Positions 39,899-58,097 of a stretch of 64,000 bases of DNA are shown here, piece by piece. Made by a program: the position numbers and the translations under genes. Origin of the DNA: Escherichia coli (GTDB taxonomy: Bacteria; Pseudomonadota; Gammaproteobacteria; Enterobacterales; Enterobacteriaceae); NCBI RefSeq assembly GCF_003019035.1, contig NZ_CP027447.1, one strand, 5' to 3'. Position 1 is the first letter of the stretch, and each line of letters starts with the position of its first letter. Below the pieces are notes generated by a model. It did no database searches. It was not told the origin of the DNA and was given only the letters and a program-made list of their open reading frames with translations.

Positions 39899-39994
39899 AT
39901 GCTGGGTAATATGAATGTTTTTATGGCCGTACTGGGAATAATTTTATTTTCTGGGTTTCTGGCCGCGTATTTCAGCCACAAATGGGATGACTAA
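39899..39994 (+). CDS. mgtS: Small membrane protein MgtS (YneM), 31 aa
   Basis: Read by hand below the track cutoff: MLGNMNVFMAVLGIILFSGFLAAYFSHKWDD with stop at 39992-39994; Shine-Dalgarno GGAGG upstream. Confidence 0.85.
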   Translation: MLGNMNVFMAVLGIILFSGFLAAYFSHKWDD

Positions 39995-40021
39995 TGAACG
40001 GAGATAATCCCTCACCTAACC

Positions 40022-40060
40022 GGCCCCTTGTTACAGTTGTGTACAAGGGGCCTGATTTTT
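40022..40060 (+). terminator. Rho-independent terminator of mgtS
   Basis: 10-bp perfect stem GGCCCCTTGT / ACAAGGGGCC followed by TGATTTTTA. Confidence 0.7.
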
Positions 40061-40067
40061 ATGACGG

Positions 40068-40172
40068 CGAAAAAAAACCGCCAGTAAACCGGCGGTGAAT
40101 GCTTGCATGGATAGATTTGTGTTTTGCTTTTACGCTAACAGGCATTTTCCTGCACTGATAACGGATCGTTGA
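40068..40172 (-). ncRNA. mgrR: Putative PhoP-dependent sRNA MgrR (boundaries approximate)
   Basis: Minus-strand promoter with PhoP box at 40202-40218 and minus-strand intrinsic terminator at 40068-40096 (CCGCC stem plus 7-8 U); about 100 nt with no ORF; position between mgtS and dgcZ. Confidence 0.45.
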
Positions 40173-40201
40173 CACAGTAGCATCAGTTTTCTCAATGAAT
40201 G

Positions 40202-46237: not shown

Positions 46238-47696
46238 ACTTCACGGAATATTTCGCCACGGTCGCTTTCGCACCATGCGCTAATAAAGACAAGTACGCTT
46301 CCGTCACTTTTGCAGTAAACAAGCTATTGTCTGGCAAATCATCACCAAAGATCGCCTTAATCGCCAGCAATGACTGGACGCGCGCTTTCCCTTCGGCACT
46401 ACTTTGTACAGCCTTCTGAATAACAGGTAACAGTGGGTCACTGATTTCTATCGGATTTCCCTGTTCATCAACACCACCGACATAACGCATCCAACCTGCG
46501 ACGCCCAGCGCCAGCAGATCGAACTTGCTGTCATGCGCCAGATGCCAGCGAACAGAATCCAACATCCGCTGTGGCAATTTCTGGCTGCCATCCATCGCAA
46601 TCTGCCAGGTTCGATGACGTAGCGCCGGGTTGCTATAGCGTTCAATTAATCGGTTAGCGTAATCTTGCAAATCAACGCCCTGCACTTTCAGCGTCGGCGC
46701 TTGTTCCTGCAACATCAAGGCATACGCTGCATGACGATAATGTTCATCTTCCATGCAGTCATTAATGTGCTGATATCCGGCAAGATAACCCAGATACGCC
46801 AGGAATGAATGACTGCCGTTGAGCATGCGCAACTTCATCTCTTCATAAGGCAGCACATCACTAACCAGTTCGGCTCCCGCTTTTTCCCATTCCGGACGTC
46901 CGGCAACAAAGTTATCTTCTATTACCCACTGGCGGAAAGGTTCACAGGCAACGCCAGCAGGATCGCGCACACCGGTAAGTTGTTCGATTTTCGCCAGCGT
47001 ATCCTCTGTCACTGCGGGCACAATACGGTCCACCATTGTTGATGGGAAAGTCACGTTTTCTTCGATCCATTGTGCCAGTTTTACATCAACAGCTTGCGCG
47101 TAGGAAGTGACAACGTCACGCATAACATGACCGTTTTCTGGCATGTTGTCACATGACATGACGGTAAATGCGGGAAGTCCTGCCGCTTTACGGCGAGCCA
47201 GCGCCTCAACAATCACCCCTGTTGCAGTTTTCGGCTGGTGGGGATTTTGTAAGTCGGCAACGACCATCGGGTGATCGAGCATTAACTGTCCGGTCGCCGG
47301 AGAGTGGAAATACCCTTTTTCGGTGATTGTCAGAGAGACAATCGCGATTTGCGGTTCACACATCGCAGCCAACACGGTTTCTAAGCCATCAATCTGTACG
47401 TGCAAGGCTTTTTTAACGACGCCAACGACGCGAGCCGTCCACGCATCGGCCGACATTTCCGCAACGGTATAAAGATTATCTTGCTGTTGTAAATCGGCAA
47501 TTTGCTGTTCGCCGCCGATTAAATTGACCTCATAATATCCCCAGTCACTGAAATGTTCCGTAGCAAGAATATCGGCATACACACCCTGATGCGCACGGTG
47601 AAATGCACCAAAGCCTAAATGAACAATTCTTGGGGCCAGGTTATTACGATCATAAACAGGGAGCGTCGCTTTTGCTGATAACAAATTATTTCCCAT
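46236..47696 (-). CDS. ydfI: Mannitol-dehydrogenase-family oxidoreductase YdfI
   Basis: Same fold family as UxaB/UxuB; 486 aa. Confidence 0.9.
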
Positions 47697-47784
47697 AACA
47701 ATTCCTTAAATATAAATATGGCAAGCTACATGTTTTGTTATATGAATAAAAATCCCCTCTCCGGTAAGAGAAGGGATGGAGGAT

Positions 47785-49068
47785 TTAAAGACTTCTGGAA
47801 GGTTGCGCAGCTCTGACAACATGCGGTTGATCTTCCGCAGCGTCTTCCAGCGCACTTAAATCACGGTCTTTCACTTCTGGCATTTTCAGCGCAGAAATTA
47901 AACCAATCACTGAATATGCCATGATCATAATTGCGATCGGATACCAGGATTCCGTCATGGTGCAGAAAATACCCGCCAGGATAGGACCAAAACCGGAAGC
48001 GATAAGACCACCAATTTCTTTAGAAATGGCCATCCGGGTAAAGCGGTTTTTACAGCCGAACATTTCTGCCATGGTAATGTTTTCCAGAGCAAATAATCCA
48101 AGCACCGCACAGTTATGAATCACAATCAGTGCAACCATAATGGTGCTCGGGGCATAGCTTTTATCTACGATGATAGAAAGCATTGGCCATGCCAGCACAA
48201 TCGCAGAGGTATTCATAATAATATACGGGATCCGGCGACCAATTTTATCGGATAACCAACCAAGGAACGGAATGGTCATAAAGCCGAGAATCGAACTGAT
48301 CATCAATGCATCTGTTGGAATTGCTTTGTTAAACAATAACGTCTGCACTAAATAGCCTGCAAGGAAAGTCTGAATTAAACCTGAGTTACCAGCCTGACCA
48401 AAACGCAGCCCTGTTGCCAGCCAGAAGGATTTGCTCTGGAACATGCTACCAGCAGGTGCAGGTTTTGCTGTAGGTTGGTTGCTGTCGTTAACCTTCTCAA
48501 AGACCGGGCTTTCTTTCAGATTCATACGCAACCAGATAGCAAAGACCATCACGACAACGCTCGCCAGGAACGGTATACGCCATCCCCACGCCAACAGTTC
48601 CTCTTTACTGAGAATGAAGAACATAAAGGCCCAGATTGCCGTTGCGCTCAAGGTTCCGCAGTTAGTCCCCATAGCAACAAATGAGGAGATAATTCCGCGC
48701 TTACCTTTTGGCGCATATTCCGCCAGCATCGTACCGGCACCGGAAATTTCCGCGCCTGCCCCCAGCCCCTGAATAATACGCAGCGTCACCAGCAAAATTG
48801 GCGCAAACACACCAATTTGTGCATAGGTCGGCAGCACACCAATTAAGGTGGTACAGATCCCCATCATGGTGATGGTAATAAAGAGCACTTTTTTACGCCC
48901 TATTCTGTCGCCCATTTTGCCGAAAATAAATGCTCCGACAATACGTGCCACATAACCTGCACCATAGGTTCCCATTGCCAGAATTAACGCCATTGCCGTT
49001 GACGATTCAGGAAAAAATATTTCATGAAAAACTAACGCTGCGCCGAGCGAATATAACTGGAAATCCAT
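47785..49068 (-). pseudogene. ydfJ: MFS metabolite:H+ symporter YdfJ, 5'-truncated at the prophage junction
   Basis: The 427-aa ORF begins inside what aligns to TM1 of ProP/ShiA-family transporters (MDFQLYSLGAALVF… matches the …MEWFDFGVYGF… region), so the N-terminal tail and part of TM1 are missing; prophage genes start immediately upstream. Confidence 0.7.
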
Positions 49069-49853
49069 AATTCACAGGTGTTTTTTCCCATCCTGTGGTT
49101 TCCTTGGCGTTTTCTAGGTTTTTTCAGATAGTTGCATTTTTTAAAAAGCATCCTAAGTTCGATCTCAGTGTCTATCTGGGGCCTATTTCTGTCCCATATA
49201 TGCCCCAAAAAAACTCCCCAACAGATAAGTAGTTTTTTCATGGATTTATGCGTAAAATCAAGAACGGCTGGAAATCATTCAATACTCACACTATCGAAAA
49301 ATTTACCAGCCAACCGCAGCACGTTCTTGCATAAGGCGTGTCTGCGGTTTTTCAACTATTCAGATACATCACTCCCATCACATTCATTCCTCCGCATCAA
49401 AGGCATATAGGCTATATCACCTTGATATTTTTCTTTTTCAGATAAAAACTGTTATCTATGTATACTTTTAAACCCAATCCGTGTAGAGTCTCTGCATAAG
49501 ATAGTTTGCAGTTGCCGCTTCAGCTTGCGCCATAAACCGCCTGATTTTTGCTGCCACCTGTTAGCATTCCTGTATACCTGAAACGACAATGTTTATCTAC
49601 GAACTTTAAGAACACCCAAGATAAAAATTGTCAACTATATCATATATAACACATTACTAATTCGAGGCTATATGAACAGCATACTGATAATCACTTCTCT
49701 CCTTATCATATTCAGCATTTTTAGTCATGCCCTAATAAAATTAGGGATTGGCATATCCAATAACCCAGACAAAACCGATGTATAAGTCAACATATCCTGA
49801 ATCAGACATACAATATCGCAATGAAAATCAATAATATTTTAAGGAATATCTTC

Positions 49854-50087
49854 ATGAAATCAAAAGACACCCTAAAGTGGTTCCCTGCGCAGCTTCCTGA
49901 AGTAAGAATTATCCTAGGGGATGCTGTAGTGGAAGTAGCAAAACAGGGAAGACCTATCAATACCAGAACATTGCTTGATTACATTGAAGGAAACATAAAG
50001 AAAAAATCATGGCTGGATAACAAAGAATTATTACAAACAGCGATATCAGTTCTTAAAGACAACCAAAATTTAAATGGTAAAATGTAA
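49854..50087 (+). CDS. ydfK: Prophage small protein YdfK (77 aa from MKSKDTLKWF)
   Basis: Start chosen at the ATG with AAGGA Shine-Dalgarno (49854) rather than the track ATG at 49821; recognised as YdfK/YnaE family. Confidence 0.75.
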   Translation: MKSKDTLKWFPAQLPEVRIILGDAVVEVAKQGRPINTRTLLDYIEGNIKKKSWLDNKELLQTAISVLKDNQNLNGKM

Positions 50088-50403
50088 TATAATAAACTTA
50101 CTTTTTTATCATTTTTCCACTTTAACAACATTTTGCTCCACTTTTCCACGACCAAACAACTTGAAATCTGGTTAAAATAACACGCAACACTATTCTTCTT
50201 CCTTGAGTCCGCCCGGAACTCGAAAAACAAACCGAGTTAAAGCCATTTCTCACAAAACCGATTTTGGGTCTCACCAAAATTACGGGGTTGCATACGCATT
50301 CGTTTATTTTCGAACGTGTACATACAAATATGCACAAAAATAATCAAAATTATTTTCTGAGATGCATTATGATATGAACACCAATTTCGTATAGAGTCTC
50401 ACT

Positions 50404-50994
50404 ATGTCTCGAATTTTTGCTTACTGTCGGATATCAACGCTGGATCAGACCATCGAAAATCAACGCCGGGAAATCGAAAGTGCAGGTTTTAAAATCAAAC
50501 CTCAGCAAATAATCGAAGAACACATTAGCGGCTCAGCAGCAACCAGTGAGCGTCCTGGTTTTAACCGGTTGCTTGCTCGCCTGAAATGTGGTGATCAATT
50601 GATTGTGACAAAACTGGATCGCCTTGGTTGTAATGCAATGGATATCAGGAAAACAGTGGAACAACTGACCGAAACAGGTATCAGAGTGCATTGCTTAGCA
50701 TTGGGGGGCATTGACCTGACCAGTCCAACAGGAAAAATGATGATGCACGTAATTTCAGCAGTCGCTGAATTTGAACGAGACCTTTTACTTGAACGCACTC
50801 ATTCCGGGATAGTAAGAGCCCGCGGCGCAGGGAAACGTTTTGGTCGACCACCTGTGTTAAATGAAGAACAGAAACAGGTGGTATTCGAACGAATTAAGTC
50901 AGGTGTAAGTATAAGTGCCATTGCCCGGGAATTCAAAACCTCGCGGCAAACCATTTTAAGAGCCAAAGCAAAACTTCAGACACCTGATATATAA
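50404..50994 (+). CDS. pin: Serine recombinase, Pin/Gin/Hin-family DNA invertase (196 aa)
   Basis: N-terminal resolvase catalytic domain (…[10 protein letters not shown]…) and C-terminal HTH; convergent with the tail-fibre genes. Confidence 0.9.
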
Positions 50995-51091
50995 AAAATA
51001 ATCTCGGTGTGAGATGCTTTACGTCTTCCAAGCCCCCTTCCTTGCCGTAAATGGAAAGATACATCTAATTATAGAATTTATATGTTTTACC

Positions 51092-51208
51092 CTACGGCAG
51101 TGCTGGCCATTCAATATCCTGTGCAGTTGACGTATCAACACGGTTCAGCAATACCCGATACTTTTTCCATGCTTCCAGCAACGAGGTTTCTTCCTCCGTT
51201 GCATATAC
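51092..51208 (-). pseudogene. tfa: 3' remnant of a tail-fibre assembly gene (tfa), about 38 codons
   Basis: Frame encodes …[38 protein letters not shown], matching the conserved Tfa C-terminus; homology stops abruptly upstream. Confidence 0.6.
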
Positions 51209-51221
51209 AGCCCACCTTTTT

Positions 51222-51515
51222 TCACCCACGATTAACCAACAGCCAGACCAGCAGACACGCCACCACCGGCACAGCAAAATCCATCAGGCTTGCCACATCC
51301 CACGCGCGCGGATCAAAACCGCCCCACCACGGCATATTCATTCGCTTGCCATGCCCGAACATTTCAATCCAGCGATATTCTGCCTGGGTATGTTCACGCG
51401 CAATGAAGAACGTACAACCGGCTATCGCTCCGTAAGCCCAGTTTCCGGTAAAAAGACCAACCAGTATCTGCGCAGCCACAGCACAAAGTGCATGAAGTAA
51501 GGGGCTTATATCCAT
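51222..51515 (-). CDS. Hypothetical small membrane protein (97 aa, two predicted TM segments)
   Basis: Hydrophobic stretches [28 protein letters not shown] and [15 protein letters not shown]; no lipobox; lies where the tfa body is expected. Confidence 0.5.
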
Positions 51516-51527
51516 TATTTCCTCCTT

Positions 51528-51806
51528 TCAGCTCCATTCCCGAAGCGGTGTTTCCAGCTCCACGACATAATCAGAGAATACAGAAACATCAAACAAGTCA
51601 TCAAGAATGCGAATGTTGACAAAATAACCGTTATTCCGGATACAGACAGGTTCTCCCTCTTCAGTTACCCCTGTTTCTGTGTAGGTGAAACCAATTTCAT
51701 CGACTAACAGTTTATTCTGGAGGTCTTCATCTTCCTCCCAGTCAAGAGATGACAGGAAGGATTTAAACTCTCTGTTACCAGGAAATTTCAAAGTTAAATC
51801 TTTCAT
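51528..51806 (-). CDS. Hypothetical small acidic protein (92 aa); possible fibre chaperone or moron product
   Basis: ORF immediately downstream of, and 4-nt overlapping, stf; Asp/Glu-rich; no resemblance to Tfa that I can see. Confidence 0.5.
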   Translation of the reverse strand: MKDLTLKFPGNREFKSFLSSLDWEEDEDLQNKLLVDEIGFTYTETGVTEEGEPVCIRNNGYFVNIRILDDLFDVSVFSDYVVELETPLREWS

Positions 51807-53833
51807 ACTGCCTCCTTGATTTGCCTGTCATTTAATTCTTTAAACCAGACTCTGAAATTTCTGATGTGTCCAAACAAATGACGCGTTCCTGCTGCGGTCT
51901 GCCCACCAAACCGGTACGATGTTGCTGTAACTCCAAATATTTTACCATTAAGGTTTGTTGTATAATTACCATTGCATATTGCATTTACTGATAAATCAGA
52001 TTTAGCTCTCACACCCACAATGAACCTTTCTCCATCTGAGGAAATTTGTGGCTGAACCATTCCTACGTTGGCGCTTATCTTTCCTGTTGAAACAAACCCC
52101 AGCGATAAATAATTATCATCAATACTGTGCCCTCCAACATCAAATATCCTTGGCGCAACATTGGGCGGTGTACTCCAGTTCCTCCTTACTTCGCACAATA
52201 CTGTAAAAGGCCGTGTTGACAGGTTATTCGCCGAGGGGATAGTAACCACATCACTTGCGCGTGTTGTTGGCATTGTAGTTACAATAAATGACGATGCCGT
52301 ATTGCCCAGTTCAATTTGCGGCGTCGTCATGGTTAATGTTGAGTCATCATAGAATGGCTCATTACTTATTTTATTTGTCATATAAAAAGCACAGTTAACG
52401 GTATCAATGTCCGTATTAGCTGTATAAGTGGCCTCATAGTAGGTCCACTCGCCCTGTTGTTCAGCTTTGGCTGTTATAAGGGATGTATTACCGCTTACTG
52501 TTGCGATCCGGGTATCCAGATCAAGATAAGAGTCAGCAGAGAATGTATCTGTTCCACCAATAATAACTGAAACTCTTAACCTGCATCGTGCTTTAGCGCC
52601 TTTAACCCGGCACGAAAAAGTGAAACATTCACCACTTGCCAGCGGGAATCTGTCTGCTGCAACCACACCATGCACAGTATAGCCACCTGTTGTTCCCACT
52701 ATACTTTCCGTGGGTGTCACCGTGGCATAATTGAACCCCTGTTTATCAGTGCCAAATGTTTTATTCAGTGCGGAATGAACAGTCCATGAGTCTGGTTTAT
52801 TTGAGTTCCTCAGATAATTTGTCCTCTGTCCTTCAATCAATAAGCCATCGCGCTCAAATCGCGGTTCGTCAACTTCAGCAAGCTTGAGTTGGCCGGACTT
52901 ATTAATATACGTTGCTGTTGAAGCACGTTTAAACTTAACAATCTTGTCGCCTGGCATTGTTATTTCATCGTCACCAATAACAATCTTTTTATAAGATGGC
53001 GAAAAACCCGTAATCATATCCAGCGAATCGTTAAACGGTATCCACACATCAGGCAGCGGCGGCACTATATTCGCATAGGGCTCTGCAGTCACTTCCGCTG
53101 CGGCTTCTGCGCGGTCTGCCGCCTTTTCAGCTCGTGTCGCTGCCGACAGAGCCTCATCCTTTTTCTGCCCGGCCTTTGTTGCGTCTGCTGCGGCCTCCCG
53201 CGCTTTTGTGGTGGCGACTCCGGCATTTTCAGCGGCTGACTCTGCATTACGGCGGGAAGCCTCTTCACTGTCTGCGGAGGCTTCTTCTGACGCACGGGCA
53301 TTTGTCTCTGAACGTTCTGCCGCTGTTGCTGCGTTTTGTGCGGCTGTTTTTGAAGAAGCTGCCGCTTTCGCGCTGTTACCTGCATTCGTCTCTGATGTTT
53401 TCGCCGCGTTCCTGGACGATGCCGCTGCTGTTTCTGATTTCTTTGCTGCCGCTGCGCTCTGAGAGGCGGCTTCAGCGTTGCGTGCTGCTTCTTCCACCAT
53501 TGCCTCAAAACGACGCAATGCCTCCGGCATGACATCATCTTCCGTCATGGCACCGAGAAAATCATTCAGCGTACCAGGTCTGGAACCTTCATAGACGGTA
53601 ATGGTTCCGGCATGTGAAGGCGGAAAACCTTCAACCAGCAGGGTGACGCTGTACTGGCCATACTCGACATCCATGCTGTAACGCCCGGCTTCATCCGGAT
53701 TTTCAGAGGCTACCGTGTTCACCAGTACCGTGGTGCTGTTACGCTTTGCCTTCAGTTGAATAGTGCAGTTCTGTATTGGTTTTCCCGCACCATCTTTCAG
53801 CACACCTGAGATTTTTACTGCTGCCATATCCAC
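51803..53833 (-). CDS. stf: Side tail fibre protein Stf (676 aa) with lambda-type N-terminus and lectin-like C-terminal domain
   Basis: N-terminus MDMAAVKISGVLKDGAGKPIQNCTIQLKAKRN… matches lambda Stf; Ala-rich coiled segment; C-terminus …HLFGHIRNFRVWFKELNDRQIKEAV resembles the terminal strand of Laminin-G/concanavalin-like domains. Confidence 0.85.
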   Translation of the reverse strand: MDMAAVKISGVLKDGAGKPIQNCTIQLKAKRNSTTVLVNTVASENPDEAGRYSMDVEYGQYSVTLLVEGFPPSHAGTITVYEGSRPGTLNDFLGAMTEDDVMPEALRRFEAMVEEAARNAEAASQSAAAAKKSETAAASSRNAAKTSETNAGNSAKAAASSKTAAQNAATAAERSETNARASEEASADSEEASRRNAESAAENAGVATTKAREAAADATKAGQKKDEALSAATRAEKAADRAEAAAEVTAEPYANIVPPLPDVWIPFNDSLDMITGFSPSYKKIVIGDDEITMPGDKIVKFKRASTATYINKSGQLKLAEVDEPRFERDGLLIEGQRTNYLRNSNKPDSWTVHSALNKTFGTDKQGFNYATVTPTESIVGTTGGYTVHGVVAADRFPLASGECFTFSCRVKGAKARCRLRVSVIIGGTDTFSADSYLDLDTRIATVSGNTSLITAKAEQQGEWTYYEATYTANTDIDTVNCAFYMTNKISNEPFYDDSTLTMTTPQIELGNTASSFIVTTMPTTRASDVVTIPSANNLSTRPFTVLCEVRRNWSTPPNVAPRIFDVGGHSIDDNYLSLGFVSTGKISANVGMVQPQISSDGERFIVGVRAKSDLSVNAICNGNYTTNLNGKIFGVTATSYRFGGQTAAGTRHLFGHIRNFRVWFKELNDRQIKEAV

Positions 53834-53891
53834 TCCACAAAAAAGCCCGCCTGAACCGGCGGGCTGTCATAACACTGTGTTACCTGGCTAA

Positions 53892-54491
53892 TCAGAATTT
53901 ATAACCGACACCCACGATGAAACCGTCAGTGCGCCAGTCACCACTGCCGGAACCTTCATAAGCAAGGTCAATGGCCACGGATTCGGTCGGGTTAAACTGC
54001 ACGCCAGCCCCCCACGCCAGAGACGTGTTGCTGTGGCGACCGTCATCACTTCCGGTCAGCACATCGTGCGTTTTCCCCTTGTTGTCAGTTACGCGGAGAT
54101 AATCCCCGGAGAAGGTCGACACACGGCTGTAAGCCATACCCGCCATCGCATACGCGCTGAACCATTCATTCACGCGCACAGACGGCCCCGCCATCACGCT
54201 GAACCAGCGGTTACGCACGGAATCTTCATGCCAGCGGGTATCGCTGTAATGCGTTTTTTGCTCATCTTTGGCATTGGCATAACTGAATGACGTCACCAGC
54301 CCCAGCGTGTCCGTAAACTCATAACGGTATTTCACGTTAATCCCGTTCAGATCATCGCTGCCGGGAACGTTCGTCGAGGCATGAAGATACCCCGCGCTCA
54401 GCGTGGACTGATGTTCAGACGCCCATGCAGGCGCACCGGATACGGCCAGACAAATGGCTACGGACAAAATGGCGGCATAAAGTTTACGCAT
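53892..54491 (-). CDS. lom: Lom outer-membrane protein (Ail/PagC/Lom family)
   Basis: Signal peptide plus 8-strand beta-barrel family sequence ending …GFIVGVGYKF. Confidence 0.9.
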   Translation of the reverse strand: MRKLYAAILSVAICLAVSGAPAWASEHQSTLSAGYLHASTNVPGSDDLNGINVKYRYEFTDTLGLVTSFSYANAKDEQKTHYSDTRWHEDSVRNRWFSVMAGPSVRVNEWFSAYAMAGMAYSRVSTFSGDYLRVTDNKGKTHDVLTGSDDGRHSNTSLAWGAGVQFNPTESVAIDLAYEGSGSGDWRTDGFIVGVGYKF

Positions 54492-54557
54492 AATTACCTC
54501 TCGCTTTTCTGCAATAAAAAAGGCGTCATTTCTGACGCCCGTTATGGGTTATAAAAT

Positions 54558-57500
54558 TCAGCTGATACTGATGCCTGCGGTGGCTTTCTTCATCACCACA
54601 ACCAGCAAATCGCTGATACTTGCTGTGGGATACCAGTCATTTACCAGCCATGCTGACACCGAAAACTCCAGCGTCATGTGGCCGTGACCAGCTGGCATAT
54701 CAATAACGCCACTGTAAATCAGCGTATTATCCAGCGCGGTACGGTTATAAATTTCAGCACCGTTTTTCCGCACTATCAGACGGCATGAGGAGTAAATATC
54801 AGTATGCTCTCTCTCATGTTTAGCACCGCTGAATGCCACCGCCGGAATAACAATCTGCCGGTCAAACGGCTGATCGTCATAAATCCTGACGGTAATGGTC
54901 CCTGATGGCCACCGCTCCGGTGCCCGGGAGTCCCGCGGGAAAGCCTTACCCACTGTTTTGACAATATCGCCTTCAATCTGGTTGGCTGACAGTTTCCCTT
55001 TAATCTGACAGTTCTCATTTATCGTAACGTTGTTGAGCGTCCCGGCGTTCGCATTCACACTGCCACTGATATCCGCATTTTTCGCCGTCAGTCGCCCGTC
55101 CGGTGTCAGGGAAAATGCCGGAGGATTACCGCCGCTGGTAATGGTGGGAGCCGTCAGATATTTCAGGAACACGTCATTCATGAATATCTGATCGCCCTGA
55201 CCAACAAACATCGGCTTTGTGTTGCCATTCGCAGGATTAATCATCGCAATCCTGTCTGCCGCCAGCAGCACCTGACTCTGCATGCCGTCGGGGGTGTTCT
55301 CAATACCGGCACCGATACCCGCAATATAAAGGCGTCCGTCCTGCATCTGCTGCAGCTTCACTGCCCACATGCTGTTCAGGTTATTATTTGTATCAACCTG
55401 AACCTTCTGTATCTGCTGGATCGCTGCACTCTGGTCTTCCAGTTTCTTATTGACGGTCTGTGTTATTTCATTGCTGACATCCGTTATGGACGTCCTGATT
55501 TCAGTCAGGTCAGGCGCAAGCTGACCGTTATCAATCTGCGTCCACAGCTCCTGAGCCAGATGGGTTTTCCCTATCTCGCCTTTGAAAAAATCCAGATAGC
55601 CGGATGCATCATCACTCGGCTGACCAACAGCCTCCACGAATGCCGATTTGCCAACGGTGTTCACACTGCGAACATAAAAATAATAATCATGGCCCGGTTT
55701 GATATTGATACTGGCGGCTATCCAGTACAGCGCCGTACCAAGATAACGCGCGCTGGTTTCAACCTGCCTGATATCAGCAATCCGTTTTTCCGAGAACCAG
55801 AACTCAAACTGTACCGTCGGATCATAAACCGCAAGATGCGGCGTGGCGGTTATCTGAAAATAGCCCGGCGTCAGCTCAATCCGCGACGGCGCTGCCGGTG
55901 CGGCAATCCGGAACGATACCGACGCCGGATCGCCCTGCTGCCCCCACGCATTTACTGCCCGGACTGTCAGCCTGTAGTTCCCCAGAGCCAGTTGTGTGAA
56001 GCGGTAAGTGGTTTCCGTCGTCCGGGCCGTGCTGACCAGCCGCTCACTGCCGTCATCCGCTGCCACGGTCAGGCGAAGCAGGAAGCTCACGCCCTTCACC
56101 ACCTTCGGTGTGTCCCATCGCGCCAGCACCTGATATTCCCCGCTGTCTGCAGTGACTTCTGCGGTCAGGTGCTGCACTGCTGGCGGCGTGACACCATTCA
56201 CCGTGCCGCTCTGGTCACCGTCAAAGTGCGCCCCGTTATCCACGATGGCTTCTTTCTCCGGTACATGCTGCACGGCAGTGATGGCATACGTACCGTCATC
56301 GTTCTCACGGATACTCACACAGCGGAACAGACGCTGGCGCAGCGTCGGCAGCTTCAGCCCCCATACGCTGTATTCAGCAACACCGTCAGGAACACGGCTC
56401 ACTTTTACCTTCACGCCGTCGGTGACGGACTGAACCTCCACGCTGACCGGATTGCCACTTCCGTCAACCAGGCTTATCAGCGTGGTACCGGAGGATGGCA
56501 GCGTGATTTCACGGTCGAGCGTCAGCGTCCGGGTCTGGCTGTTCACCGCCAGCACGCGACCACCGATGCTGATACCGGCATAGTCATCATCACAGATTTC
56601 AATGACATCGCCCGGTACATGGCGAAGCCCTTCTGCGCCCACGCTGAAGTCCACGGTCTGCGTTTCCAGCAGTTCCGTTTTAATCAGCCACAGCCCGGCG
56701 CGGTGCGCCTGCCCCCGGCTGGTACAGCCAAAAGCATCCATCTTCGTGACGTTACGACCGTAACGGGCAATGGCCTGCGTGTCCTCCACAAGCTCTGTTG
56801 CCGTTTCCCAGCCGTTATCCGGGTCAATCCAGTTCACTTCAACGGCATTATGGCGGTCCTTCAGGGCGCTGAAGCTGTAGCGGAACGGCGCGCCATCATC
56901 CGGCATCACCACATTACTGCGGTTATAGGTCCACACCTTATCCGACGGTCGGTCCTGCACGAACGTCAGCGTCTGCCCGTTCCATACCGGCATACAGCGC
57001 ATCGCCGAGCAGAAATCACTGAGCACATCCCACGCCTTGCGCTGTGTGGTCAGGTACGCATTACAGGTAATGCGCGGCTCCGTGCCGCCAAAGCCGTCCG
57101 GCACCGACTGGTCGCAGTACTGGCCGATGACATACAGCGCCCATTTATCCACATCCGCCGCACCAAGACGTTTCCCCATGCCGTAGCGCGGATGGGTCAG
57201 CATATCCCACAGACACCAGGCCATGTTGTTGCTGTATGCTGGCTTAAACGTTCCGTCCCAGATACCGCTGTATTGCCGCGTCAGCGGGTTATAGTTCGAC
57301 GGCACCTGCAGAATACGCCCGCGCAGATGATAATTACGGCTCACCTGCTGGCTGCCGAACTGCTCCGAGTCCACCTGCACGCCGACCAGTGCCGTGTTCG
57401 GGTAGCACTGTTTCACATCGATGATTTCGGTGTATGACGACCAGAGCGTTTTGTTCTGCAGCTGGTCTGTAGTGCTGTCCGGCGTCATCCTGCGCATCCG

Positions 57501-58034
57501 GATACTGAACGGGCGCGGCGGCAGGTTACCCACCACCACCGAGGCCAGATACTGTGAGGTGGTTTTGCCTTTAATGGTGATGTCTTTTTCCGTCACCCAG
57601 CCACCGTTACGTTGTATCTGAACCAGCAGGCGGACTTCCGACGGATTCCGGTCACCCTTTGAGGTGGTTTCCACCAGTGCCTGCACACCAAAGGTAAAGC
57701 GCAGACGGTCGATATTTGCAGACGTGATGGTGCGGGTTATCGGCGTGTCGTATTTCACTTCCGTACCCAGCACCGTCTCGGAGCCGGAGGATTCAAAACC
57801 CTCCGGCGGTGTCTGCTCCTGCTCACCGGCCCGGAACACCACCGTGACACCGGCGATGTTGGTATTCCCTTCGCTATCCAGCACCGGCGTACTGTTCAGC
57901 AGCACGCTTTTTAATCCATCCACCGGACCTTCAATCGGCCCTTCGCTGATGGCATCGATCACACTCAGTAACTGCGTGGATTTCAGGTTGTCCTTCGCTT
58001 CGCGCGGGGTATGCCCCTTACTGCTGCCTTTACC
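54558..58034 (-). CDS. J: Tail tip host-specificity protein J (start at [15 protein letters not shown])
   Basis: N-terminal ~850 aa match lambda J as I recall it; C-terminal ~300 aa diverge; the track ORF extends 16 codons upstream. Confidence 0.9.
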
Positions 58035-58097
58035 CATTCCTAACGCTCCATAAACGACAAAACCGCCCGGAGGCGGTTTCACATAAAATATTTTGCA

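What the first reader, a model, noticed from the sequence alone, without database searches (positions are those of the whole stretch)
47785..49853. Prophage junction inside ydfJ with a long AT-rich leader before ydfK
The ydfJ ORF starts inside the first transmembrane helix when aligned to ProP-family transporters, and phage genes follow within ~750 bp, so the prophage is integrated in the 5' part of ydfJ. The 49069-49853 stretch is AT-rich, contains no convincing ORF, and should hold the att core and the ydfK promoter and leader. The other ydfJ fragment and the integrase should lie at the far end of the prophage, outside this window.
Basis: partly seen in the sequence, partly recalled or inferred. 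Interest (0 to 1): 0.4.

Follow-up and report, generated by a model that had tools for sequence, protein, structure and literature searches.

The report
Qin-type prophage junction in ydfJ
This is the well-known right-hand junction of a Qin-type lambdoid prophage that has integrated into the start of the E. coli transporter gene ydfJ. The AT-rich stretch beside it is a patchwork of phage attachment-site arm, a terminator and a small annotated gene, not one long ydfK leader.

Summary
The junction is real and exact. Window ORF 47785-49068 (-) is ydfJ lacking its first 28 codons; an uninterrupted allele encodes 455 aa. Host homology ends at an 11-bp core, GAAATCCATAA (49060-49070). The same core is present in attB, in the attP of an isolated phage (PhiR42_1), and at the integrase-side junction of two related genomes. 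In strain GF131 (99.9% identical over the 16.4 kb compared), the ydfJ 5' fragment, integrase and excisionase lie 45,132 bp away, outside the window.

E. coli K-12 has the same junction at the same base, annotated as cryptic prophage Qin, and the 28-codon truncation is published. The finding is therefore already known.

It is not a single ORF-free leader. It holds:
- a phage att arm with tandem TGYCCCA motifs, candidate Int arm sites;
- a dinI-less remnant ending in a strong intrinsic terminator (49312-49349);
- about 320 bp of promoter region shared with Rac;
- the annotated 37-aa small-protein gene ynfT (49672-49785).

The att core overlaps the first codons of the truncated ORF rather than lying in the spacer. 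Interest is low.

The parts
47752..47777 (-). terminator-like hairpin plus T-run immediately after the ydfJ stop codon
   Evidence: Consensus scan: 11-pair stem followed by TTTTTATT.
47785..49068 (-). ydfJ' : MHS-family MFS transporter gene lacking codons 1-28. The ORF starts at what is Met29 of the intact 455-aa protein.
   Evidence: PGAP annotates it as 'incomplete; missing N-terminus' in L002, L003 and L006. In K-12 it is b1543.
49060..49070 (.). 11-bp att core GAAATCCATAA. It occurs once in the 64-kb window. This copy is the junction on the side away from int, called attR here.
   Evidence: The same 11-mer, with the expected recombinant flanks, is present in attB (L001 5461-5471), attP (L007 2986-2996), the int-side junctions (L003 48798-48808; L004 8444-8454, - strand) and the window. 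The K-12 'cryptic prophage Qin' feature starts at the equivalent base.
49071..49074 (.). TTCA: an imperfect extension of the core. attB reads ATTCA here, a 1-nt A difference.
49071..49220 (+). Phage att arm on the side away from int. It is shared at 88-90% identity by unrelated-cargo prophages integrated at the same site.
   Evidence: Identical to PhiR42_1 attP to the right of the core. Shared with M24FEP and an O157-type prophage.
49190..49207 (+). Tandem TGTCCCA / TGCCCCA motifs 11 bp apart, proposed as arm-type Int binding sites. A degenerate third copy, CTCCCCA, lies at 49214-49220 and an inverted GGCCCCA at 49177-49183.
   Evidence: The motif occurs only 9 times in 64 kb. The pair is invariant in three different prophages. 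A second tandem pair with the same 11-bp spacing sits in the int-side arm of attP (L007 2909 and 2920), next to an exact IHF consensus (L007 2958-2970). Binding is inferred, not shown.
49221..49351 (+). Remnant or boundary region. O157-type prophages carry a dinI-like ORF of about 205 bp between 49220 and 49228. The downstream ~100 nt recurs in many lambdoid phages.
49312..49352 (+). Strong intrinsic terminator: hairpin 49312-49349 (G+C stem 49314-47) whose last two paired Us begin the T-run 49348-52. It is preceded by a second hairpin at 49266-49311.
   Evidence: -20.7 kcal/mol, z -3.3. With the upstream hairpin: -35.5 kcal/mol, z -4.3, 0 of 200 shuffles as stable. In attP it lies about 330 nt downstream of the int stop codon on the same strand.
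49352..49671 (+). Non-coding region upstream of ynfT, 99-100% identical to the Rac prophage end. It should hold the ynfT/ydfK promoter. A weak predicted promoter, TTCAGA-18-TATACT, lies at 49437-49466, and a palindrome or hairpin at 49585-49632.
   Evidence: The promoter is a consensus match only: 7 were found against 8.6 expected in shuffles.
49672..49785 (+). ynfT, a 37-aa small hydrophobic protein of the YnaM/YnfT family
49854..50087 (+). ydfK, cold shock protein YdfK (77 aa), with AAGGAA 8 nt before the ATG
   Evidence: Cold induction is cited in PMC10654059.
50404..50994 (+). pinQ, a serine recombinase/invertase

Best explanation
Window 47785-49853 is one junction of a Qin-type lambdoid prophage: the junction on the side away from int. 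The prophage entered the chromosome by Int-mediated site-specific recombination between its attP and an attB inside codons 27-31 of ydfJ.

Strand exchange took place within the 11-bp identity GAAATCCATAA (49060-49070). To its left is host DNA: ydfJ codons 29-455, then ydfI. To its right is phage DNA. The insertion removes ydfJ's first 28 codons (half of transmembrane helix 1), its ribosome-binding site, and its link to the upstream rspAB transcription unit. The 427-aa ORF is therefore most likely a silent remnant.

The other half of the gene sits about 45 kb away, next to int and xis. There the first 31 ydfJ codons run into phage sequence to give the 36-aa protein YnfP.

The AT-rich 783 bp after the core is a mosaic of four parts:
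1. The att arm, with candidate Int arm sites.
2. A remnant region ending in an intrinsic terminator. In the excised phage this terminator lies downstream of int.
3. A promoter region shared with Rac.
4. The small gene ynfT, directly upstream of ydfK. The two are probably one cold-inducible unit.

Shown: the breakpoint, the core, the recombinant structure of the junctions, the far-end fragment, and the identity to K-12 Qin. Inferred: Int binding at the TGYCCCA motifs, loss of ydfJ function, co-transcription of ynfT and ydfK, and the role of the terminator.
For: Breakpoint and core:
- The window is identical to an intact ydfJ-rspB locus up to 49070 and then diverges.
- The four-way alignment of attP (phage PhiR42_1), attL (GF131), attR (window) and attB shows the exact reciprocal pattern around GAAATCCATAA.

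Far end:
- In GF131, 99.9% identical to window 47600-64000, the second core is 45,132 bp away. It is followed by ydfJ codons 1-31 and rspB, and preceded by an integrase and an excisionase.
- The integrase has Arm-DNA-bind_2 plus Phage_integrase domains; the excisionase matches DUF1233.

Identity to K-12 Qin:
- K-12 is 98.4% identical across the junction. Its Qin feature starts at the equivalent of 49060, with ydfJ b1543, ynfT, ydfK and pinQ in the same order and ynfP at the far end.
[quoted passage not shown] YnfP and YnaM/YnfT are listed among small proteins identified by chromosomal epitope tagging (PMC6001520).

Independent support:
- Divergence between the window and K-12 steps at the core. 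It is 2.65% in ydfJ' and 0.2-0.9% on the phage side.
- Of 5426 complete E. coli genomes, 2009 have the intact site and 1985 have this same junction.
Against: - The window itself does not contain the second junction, so the far end is read from near-identical and related genomes, not from this genome.
- No experiment here shows that ydfJ' is silent. The ORF is intact, and in K-12, M24FEP and an O157-type strain it differs from the intact allele only by synonymous changes (31-33 synonymous, 0 nonsynonymous).
- Current K-12 annotation lists ydfJ as a CDS, not a pseudogene.
- The arm-site and IHF assignments rest on motif repetition only.
Confidence: 0.95

Rival explanations
1. The whole of 49069-49853 is one long untranslated 5' leader of ydfK, possibly a riboswitch or thermosensor.
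For: - Papers report short, prematurely terminated transcripts from the ynaE and ydfK 5' leaders, and binding of these to Hfq (PMC5089854; PMC4152368).
- ydfK is cold-induced.
- A hairpin at 49585-49632 folds better than shuffles (z -3.8).
Against: - A strong + strand intrinsic terminator lies at 49312-49349.
- 49071-49220 is the att arm, shared by prophages that lack ydfK altogether.
- ynfT (49672-49785) is an annotated gene that is conserved as a protein.
- In Salmonella-type loci, homology starts only at 49619, and the non-coding parts are less conserved than both ORFs: 55-66% against 77-86%.
- No Rfam family matches.
- The 401-nt fold is not unusual (z -1.2).
Confidence: 0.05
2. A shorter leader, roughly 49470-49853, carries a real regulatory RNA element. 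It could be cold-responsive or Hfq-bound, with ynfT acting as a leader peptide ORF that controls ydfK.
For: - ynfT and ydfK are always adjacent, on the same strand and 68-72 nt apart, in Qin-type, Rac-type and Salmonella-type loci.
- Leader fragments are reported to bind Hfq.
- A palindrome or hairpin lies just upstream of the ynfT ribosome-binding site.
Against: - No covariation could be tested. Only E. coli and Salmonella versions exist in the collections searched.
- The intergenic ynfT-ydfK stretch is only 66% conserved.
- No terminator-like structure lies between ynfT and ydfK.
Confidence: 0.25
3. The truncated ydfJ' is still expressed from Met29 by a phage-side promoter and keeps some function.
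For: - The ORF is intact in all six loci examined, with 0 nonsynonymous against 31-33 synonymous differences to the intact allele.
- K-12 RefSeq lists it as a CDS.
Against: - It lacks half of TM1, including the start of the conserved motif.
- There is no Shine-Dalgarno sequence within 15 nt of the ATG, and no predicted - strand promoter nearby.
- Phage-side DNA is 3-10 times less diverged than ydfJ' between strains. The synonymous-only pattern can therefore predate a recent integration.
- PGAP flags it as incomplete in other genomes.
Confidence: 0.1
4. ydfJ is simply a shorter gene here, or was truncated by a deletion or an IS element rather than by site-specific integration.
For: None beyond the presence of an in-frame ATG at 49066-49068.
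Against: - The missing 84 nt plus the rspB-ydfJ spacer are intact at the other prophage end in related genomes.
- The flanks are exactly attB x attP recombinants.
- There is no IS element at the junction.
Confidence: 0.01

Closest known systems
Cryptic prophage Qin of E. coli K-12 MG1655 (ydfJ b1543 / ynfT / ydfK / pinQ end; ynfP / intQ end)
   Same: - Same insertion base: the Qin feature starts at the equivalent of window 49060.
- Same 28-codon truncation of ydfJ.
- Same gene order ynfT-ydfK-pinQ.
- 98.4% identity over 47785-50400.
- Same YnfP fusion at the far end in the near-identical strain GF131.
   Different: K-12 Qin is a 20.5-kb defective remnant with intQ disrupted next to an IS2. The prophage here carries full lambda-like tail genes within the window. 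In GF131 it is 45.1 kb, with uninterrupted int, xis, replication, lysis and head genes. A near-identical att region is found in the deposited phage genome PhiR42_1 from ECOR13.
Phage lambda attP/attB system (heterobivalent tyrosine integrase, Xis, IHF; int-attP-sib/tI layout)
   Same: - Short identical core in attP and attB.
- int and xis adjacent to attP.
- Int with an N-terminal arm-binding domain.
- Tandem repeated motifs on both arms at 11-bp spacing, and an exact IHF consensus between the arm repeats and the core on the int side.
- An intrinsic terminator across attP, about 330 nt downstream of int. This is the position of tI/sib in lambda (from my own knowledge of lambda).
   Different: - The core is 11 bp and lies inside a coding sequence, not between gal and bio.
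- The arm motif TGYCCCA is unrelated to lambda's.
- No binding data exist.
- No extended RNase III-type stem was seen around the terminator, so a sib-like role is only an analogy.
Rac prophage end at ttcA (ynaM-ynaE-pinR)
   Same: Window 49310-50500 is 99% identical to the Rac-type end next to uspF in strain ET729. The small-protein gene, the ydfK/ynaE gene and the invertase gene have the same layout.
   Different: The att arm and core (49060 to about 49310) are specific to ydfJ-integrating phages and are absent from the Rac end.

Membership tests
Site-specific (tyrosine integrase) prophage att junction | The same core sequence is present in attB, attP and both prophage junctions, and the flanks are exact reciprocal recombinants. 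| tested here: met
   GAAATCCATAA with the expected flanks in L001 (attB), L007 (attP), the window, and L003/L004 (the other junction)..
Site-specific (tyrosine integrase) prophage att junction | A tyrosine integrase, with an arm-binding domain, and an excisionase are encoded next to attP. | tested here: met
   GF131 integrase: PF12167 at 5.5e-24 plus PF00589 at 3.9e-18. Excisionase: PF06806 at 1.6e-31. Tested on the near-identical genome; the genes lie outside the window.
Site-specific (tyrosine integrase) prophage att junction | Arm-type Int sites and IHF sites lie on the att arms. | tested here: inconclusive
   Tandem TGYCCCA pairs on both arms, an exact IHF consensus on the int side, and only a 2-mismatch IHF-like site on the window side. 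This is motif evidence only.
Site-specific (tyrosine integrase) prophage att junction | Excision restores attB and releases a circular attP. | not testable with these tools
   Indirect evidence only: the phage genome PhiR42_1 carries the contiguous attP, and 2009 of 5426 genomes carry the empty site.
Qin prophage (E. coli K-12 definition) | Integration at ydfJ codon 28/29, with ynfT-ydfK-pinQ at this end. | tested here: met
Qin prophage (E. coli K-12 definition) | A defective 20.5-kb remnant with disrupted intQ. | tested here: not met
   The window holds a full lambda-like tail gene set. GF131 has a 45.1-kb prophage with intact int and xis. This is therefore a Qin-type prophage at the Qin site, not the K-12 remnant itself.
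MHS-family MFS transporter (TIGR00883), YdfJ | Full-length match to the family profile, including TM1. | tested here: not met
   The score of 453.5 exceeds the cutoff of 443.45, but the match starts at profile position 7. Matches to the ProP and ShiA profiles start at positions 40 and 37, and 28 residues are missing relative to the 455-aa allele.
YnaM/YnfT small protein family | Match to PF23676 / NF041477 over the full length. | tested here: met
   PF23676 at 6.5e-28 over 1-37 of 37. NF041477 at 63.9 bits against a cutoff of 35. The sequence is identical to K-12 YnaM/YnfT.
Riboswitch or other curated cis-regulatory RNA in the ydfK leader | Match to a curated RNA family, or a conserved structure with covariation. 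| tested here: not met
   No Rfam match at gathering score, and only chance-level hits at E<10. Too few divergent homologues exist to test covariation.

The most novel reading that the evidence does not exclude
The roughly 380 nt between the terminator and ydfK, including ynfT and the AGATAA/TTATCT palindromes at 49440-49457 and 49585-49632, may form a still-uncharacterised cold-responsive or Hfq-dependent control unit. In this reading, translation of the leader ORF ynfT, or an RNA or operator palindrome, gates ydfK. The hairpin pair at 49266-49349, which recurs next to attP in many lambdoid phages, might act as a sib-like retroregulator of int.
Probability: 0.2. Interest if true: 0.3.

Novelty: already known. 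Interest (0 to 1): 0.08.

Why it matters
The finding matters little beyond correct annotation. It confirms that about 63% of complete E. coli genomes lack an intact site in ydfJ, and 37% carry this exact junction. Integration splits the transporter gene from the rspAB cluster. From memory, this cluster is implicated in L-gulonate/D-mannonate catabolism; I could not retrieve that paper.

For a genome scan, the useful outcome is a base-exact map:
- core at 49060-49070;
- att arm;
- terminator;
- ynfT;
- ydfK.

The scan should also correct the reading that the spacer is one ORF-free leader.

Tried and rejected
- **Rfam.** The gathering scan of the whole window found only STnc560, far from the finding. 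The permissive scan of 49000-50420 gave only sub-threshold hits. The best, CssrB on the - strand, matches only through the terminator hairpin.
- **Folding.** A fold of a 401-nt putative leader gave z -1.2, which is unremarkable.
- **Promoter scan.** It found 7 sites against 8.6 expected by chance, so no promoter can be called from sequence.
- **More divergent ydfK loci for covariation.** IMG/VR gave 28 loci in only two sequence types, and tblastn against phages found only E. coli and Salmonella. I ran no further search on this.
- **Pin-type inverted repeats.** A search around pinQ and the tail fibre genes found none of 18 nt or more.
- **Papers not held in the library.** Raghavan 2011 (ydfK/ynaE leader transcripts), a dRNA-seq TSS paper, and the L-gulonate pathway paper. 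Statements about them are second-hand or from memory.
- **Synonymous-only divergence of ydfJ' as evidence of function.** Rejected as decisive, because the phage side is much less diverged than the host side.
- **Kyte-Doolittle hydropathy.** On its own it does not sharply delimit TM1. The 'inside TM1' statement rests mainly on profile alignment positions and the conserved motif.

Full report
**What is in the window.** The left part of the window is the E. coli chromosomal segment dcp-ydfG-rspR-ydfZ-ydfI-ydfJ. ORF 47785-49068 on the - strand encodes 427 aa. It scores above the curated cutoff of the metabolite/H+ symporter model TIGR00883 (453.5 vs 443.45 bits). Its alignments to the ProP and shikimate-transporter profiles begin only at profile positions 40 and 37. 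To its right come ynfT, ydfK, pinQ and then a complete set of lambda-like tail genes. The stretch 49071-49853 is 36.8% GC. Host DNA to the left is 48% GC and the remaining prophage DNA is 54%.

**The breakpoint.** Strain 2012C-4502 has an uninterrupted locus, ydfI-ydfJ-rspB-rspA, with a 455-aa YdfJ. The window is identical to it up to 49070 and unrelated beyond. On the - strand a TGA stop (49072-49074) lies one codon upstream of the ORF's ATG, after a single ATT codon. That ATG is Met29 of the intact protein, inside the motif GTALEFMDFQLY of the first hydrophobic segment. It rests on profile positions and the motif rather than on a solved topology.

**The core and the four att sites.** The sequence GAAATCCATAA (49060-49070) occurs once in the window. 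I compared four sites:
- attB, from 2012C-4502;
- attP, from the deposited phage genome PhiR42_1 from ECOR13, where int is contiguous with the window's 49071 onwards;
- the int-side junction, from GF131 and MEC2025-PR;
- the window junction.

Each prophage junction is an exact left/right recombinant of attB and attP around this 11-mer. A further TTCA matches if one A is skipped. The core lies in ydfJ codons 27-31. It therefore overlaps the start of the truncated ORF and is not in the AT-rich spacer.

**The far end.** GF131 matches window 47600-64000 at 99.9% over 100% of the length, and 58645-64000 at 99.98%. In GF131 the second core copy is 45,132 bp away. It is preceded by an excisionase (DUF1233) and an integrase with Arm-DNA-bind_2 and Phage_integrase domains. 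It is followed by the 84-nt ydfJ 5' fragment, the ydfJ-rspB spacer and rspB. Neither this fragment nor int/xis has any significant match inside the window. At that end the first 31 ydfJ codons run into phage DNA to give MTIEKHERSTKDLVKAAVSGWLGTALEFMDFKSHAC. This is identical to the K-12 small protein YnfP listed by VanOrsdel et al. (PMC6001520).

**Already known.** K-12 MG1655 is 98.4% identical over 47785-50400. Its RefSeq record annotates 'cryptic prophage Qin' beginning at the base equivalent to 49060. It lists ydfJ (b1543, 427 aa), ynfT, ydfK and pinQ at this end, and intQ (pseudogene) and ynfP at the other. [quoted passage not shown] Among 5426 complete E. coli genomes, 2009 carry the intact site and 1985 carry this same junction through ydfK. 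Most of the rest have other prophages at the same core. The prophage here differs from K-12 Qin in being full-sized rather than a 20.5-kb remnant.

**Anatomy of the AT-rich spacer.** It is a mosaic, not one leader.
1. **49071-49220, att arm.** It is identical to attP of PhiR42_1. It is shared at 88-90% identity by prophages that carry quite different cargo, for example M24FEP (no ydfK) and an O157-type prophage with dinI-like and nleG7 genes.
   - It contains TGTCCCA and TGCCCCA 11 bp apart (49190, 49201). This pair is invariant in all three prophages.
   - The motif occurs only 9 times in the 64-kb window.
   - A second tandem pair with the same spacing sits in the int-side arm, next to an exact IHF consensus.
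   - I propose these as arm-type Int sites. That is inference.
2. **49221-49351, remnant region.** O157-type prophages have a dinI-like ORF of about 205 bp inserted here.
   - The last ~100 nt recur at 80-88% identity in many lambdoid phages.
   - The region folds into two hairpins. The second (49312-49349, followed by a T-run) is a strong intrinsic terminator on the + strand.
3. **49310 onward, Rac-shared block.** The sequence is 99% identical to the Rac prophage end, ynaM-ynaE/ydfK-pinR.
4. **49672-49785, ynfT.** It is identical to K-12 YnaM/YnfT and matches Pfam and NCBIfam models.
   - It is preserved in frame and length in Salmonella-type loci, with 11-12 synonymous and 9-10 mostly conservative codon changes.
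   - In those loci, homology begins only at 49619. Both ORFs are better conserved than the flanking non-coding DNA.

**The ydfK leader.** Second-hand reports say that ynaE and ydfK leaders give short, prematurely terminated transcripts that bind Hfq and were proposed as riboswitch-like elements (PMC5089854; PMC4152368). I could not read the primary paper. My analyses neither confirm nor exclude a regulatory RNA downstream of 49352:
- there is no Rfam match;
- the overall fold is unremarkable;
- one local hairpin or palindrome lies at 49585-49632 (z -3.8);
- there are too few divergent homologues for covariation.

The short 'leader' transcripts may in part be ynfT mRNA.

**Is ydfJ' alive?** The ORF is intact in every lysogen examined. 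It differs from the intact allele by 31-33 synonymous and 0 nonsynonymous codons in K-12, M24FEP and an O157-type strain. However, between the window and K-12 the host side is 1.8-2.7% diverged and the phage side only 0.2-0.9%. The phage DNA is therefore the more recently shared, and the synonymous-only pattern can predate integration. There is no Shine-Dalgarno sequence or predicted promoter in front of Met29. I rate residual function as unlikely (about 0.1).

**Verdict.** The secondary claims (no ORF, one long leader, core in the spacer) are wrong or unsupported. Novelty: already known. Interest: low.

Noticed in passing
window 39988-40201 (-): Full-length Rfam match to the Hfq-binding sRNA STnc560 (281.9 bits, gathering score 55). 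It is unrelated to the finding.
   Followed up: no
window 49252-49351 (+): A ~100-nt two-hairpin element ending in an intrinsic terminator recurs at 80-88% identity in many lambdoid phages. In HK633 it lies 72 nt after int and is annotated as attP. In lambda imm21 it lies between ea31 and ea47. It is also in phi80, HK106 and 21. It may be a shared module-boundary or int-distal terminator sequence.
   Followed up: partly
window 49315-49452 (-): Sub-threshold match (25 bits, gathering score 76) to the Shigella sRNA family CssrB. Only the terminator hairpin aligns, read on the opposite strand.
   Followed up: partly
window 49220/49228; L006 4601-4843: O157-type prophages at the same att site carry a dinI-like ORF of about 205 bp exactly where the window has none. 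They then carry nleG7 effector cargo instead of ynfT-ydfK. The att arm is shared while the cargo differs.
   Followed up: partly
window 47371-50994 vs K-12 (L038): Sequence divergence steps at the core: ydfI 1.84% and ydfJ' 2.65%, against 0.2-0.9% on the phage side. This implies that the prophage end is more recently shared than the host genes.
   Followed up: yes
window 47785-49068 (-) and the same gene in L002, L006, L038: Truncated ydfJ' copies differ from an intact allele by 31-33 synonymous and 0 nonsynonymous codons, and none has an internal stop.
   Followed up: partly
window 49440-49457, 49585-49598, 49619-49632: Repeated AGATAA/TTATCT palindromic motifs. One lies between the hexamers of a predicted promoter (49437-49466). 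Two form a 14-nt inverted repeat just upstream of the ynfT ribosome-binding site. These could be an operator or an RNA hairpin.
   Followed up: partly
L022 643-1253: In Salmonella-type loci the ynfT-ydfK pair is preceded by a 70-aa distant YdfK-like ORF and a 133-aa lipoprotein-like ORF, instead of the E. coli non-coding region.
   Followed up: no
L004 8340-8454 (GF131), outside the window: The ydfJ 5' fragment fused to phage DNA encodes a 36-aa ORF identical to K-12 YnfP, so the int-side junction creates a chimeric small-protein gene.
   Followed up: yes
window 50300-54200: pinQ is followed by tail-fibre-assembly fragments. No inverted repeat of 18 nt or more that could bound an invertible segment was found. 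The tail fibre region differs between the window/GF131 and MEC2025-PR.
   Followed up: partly
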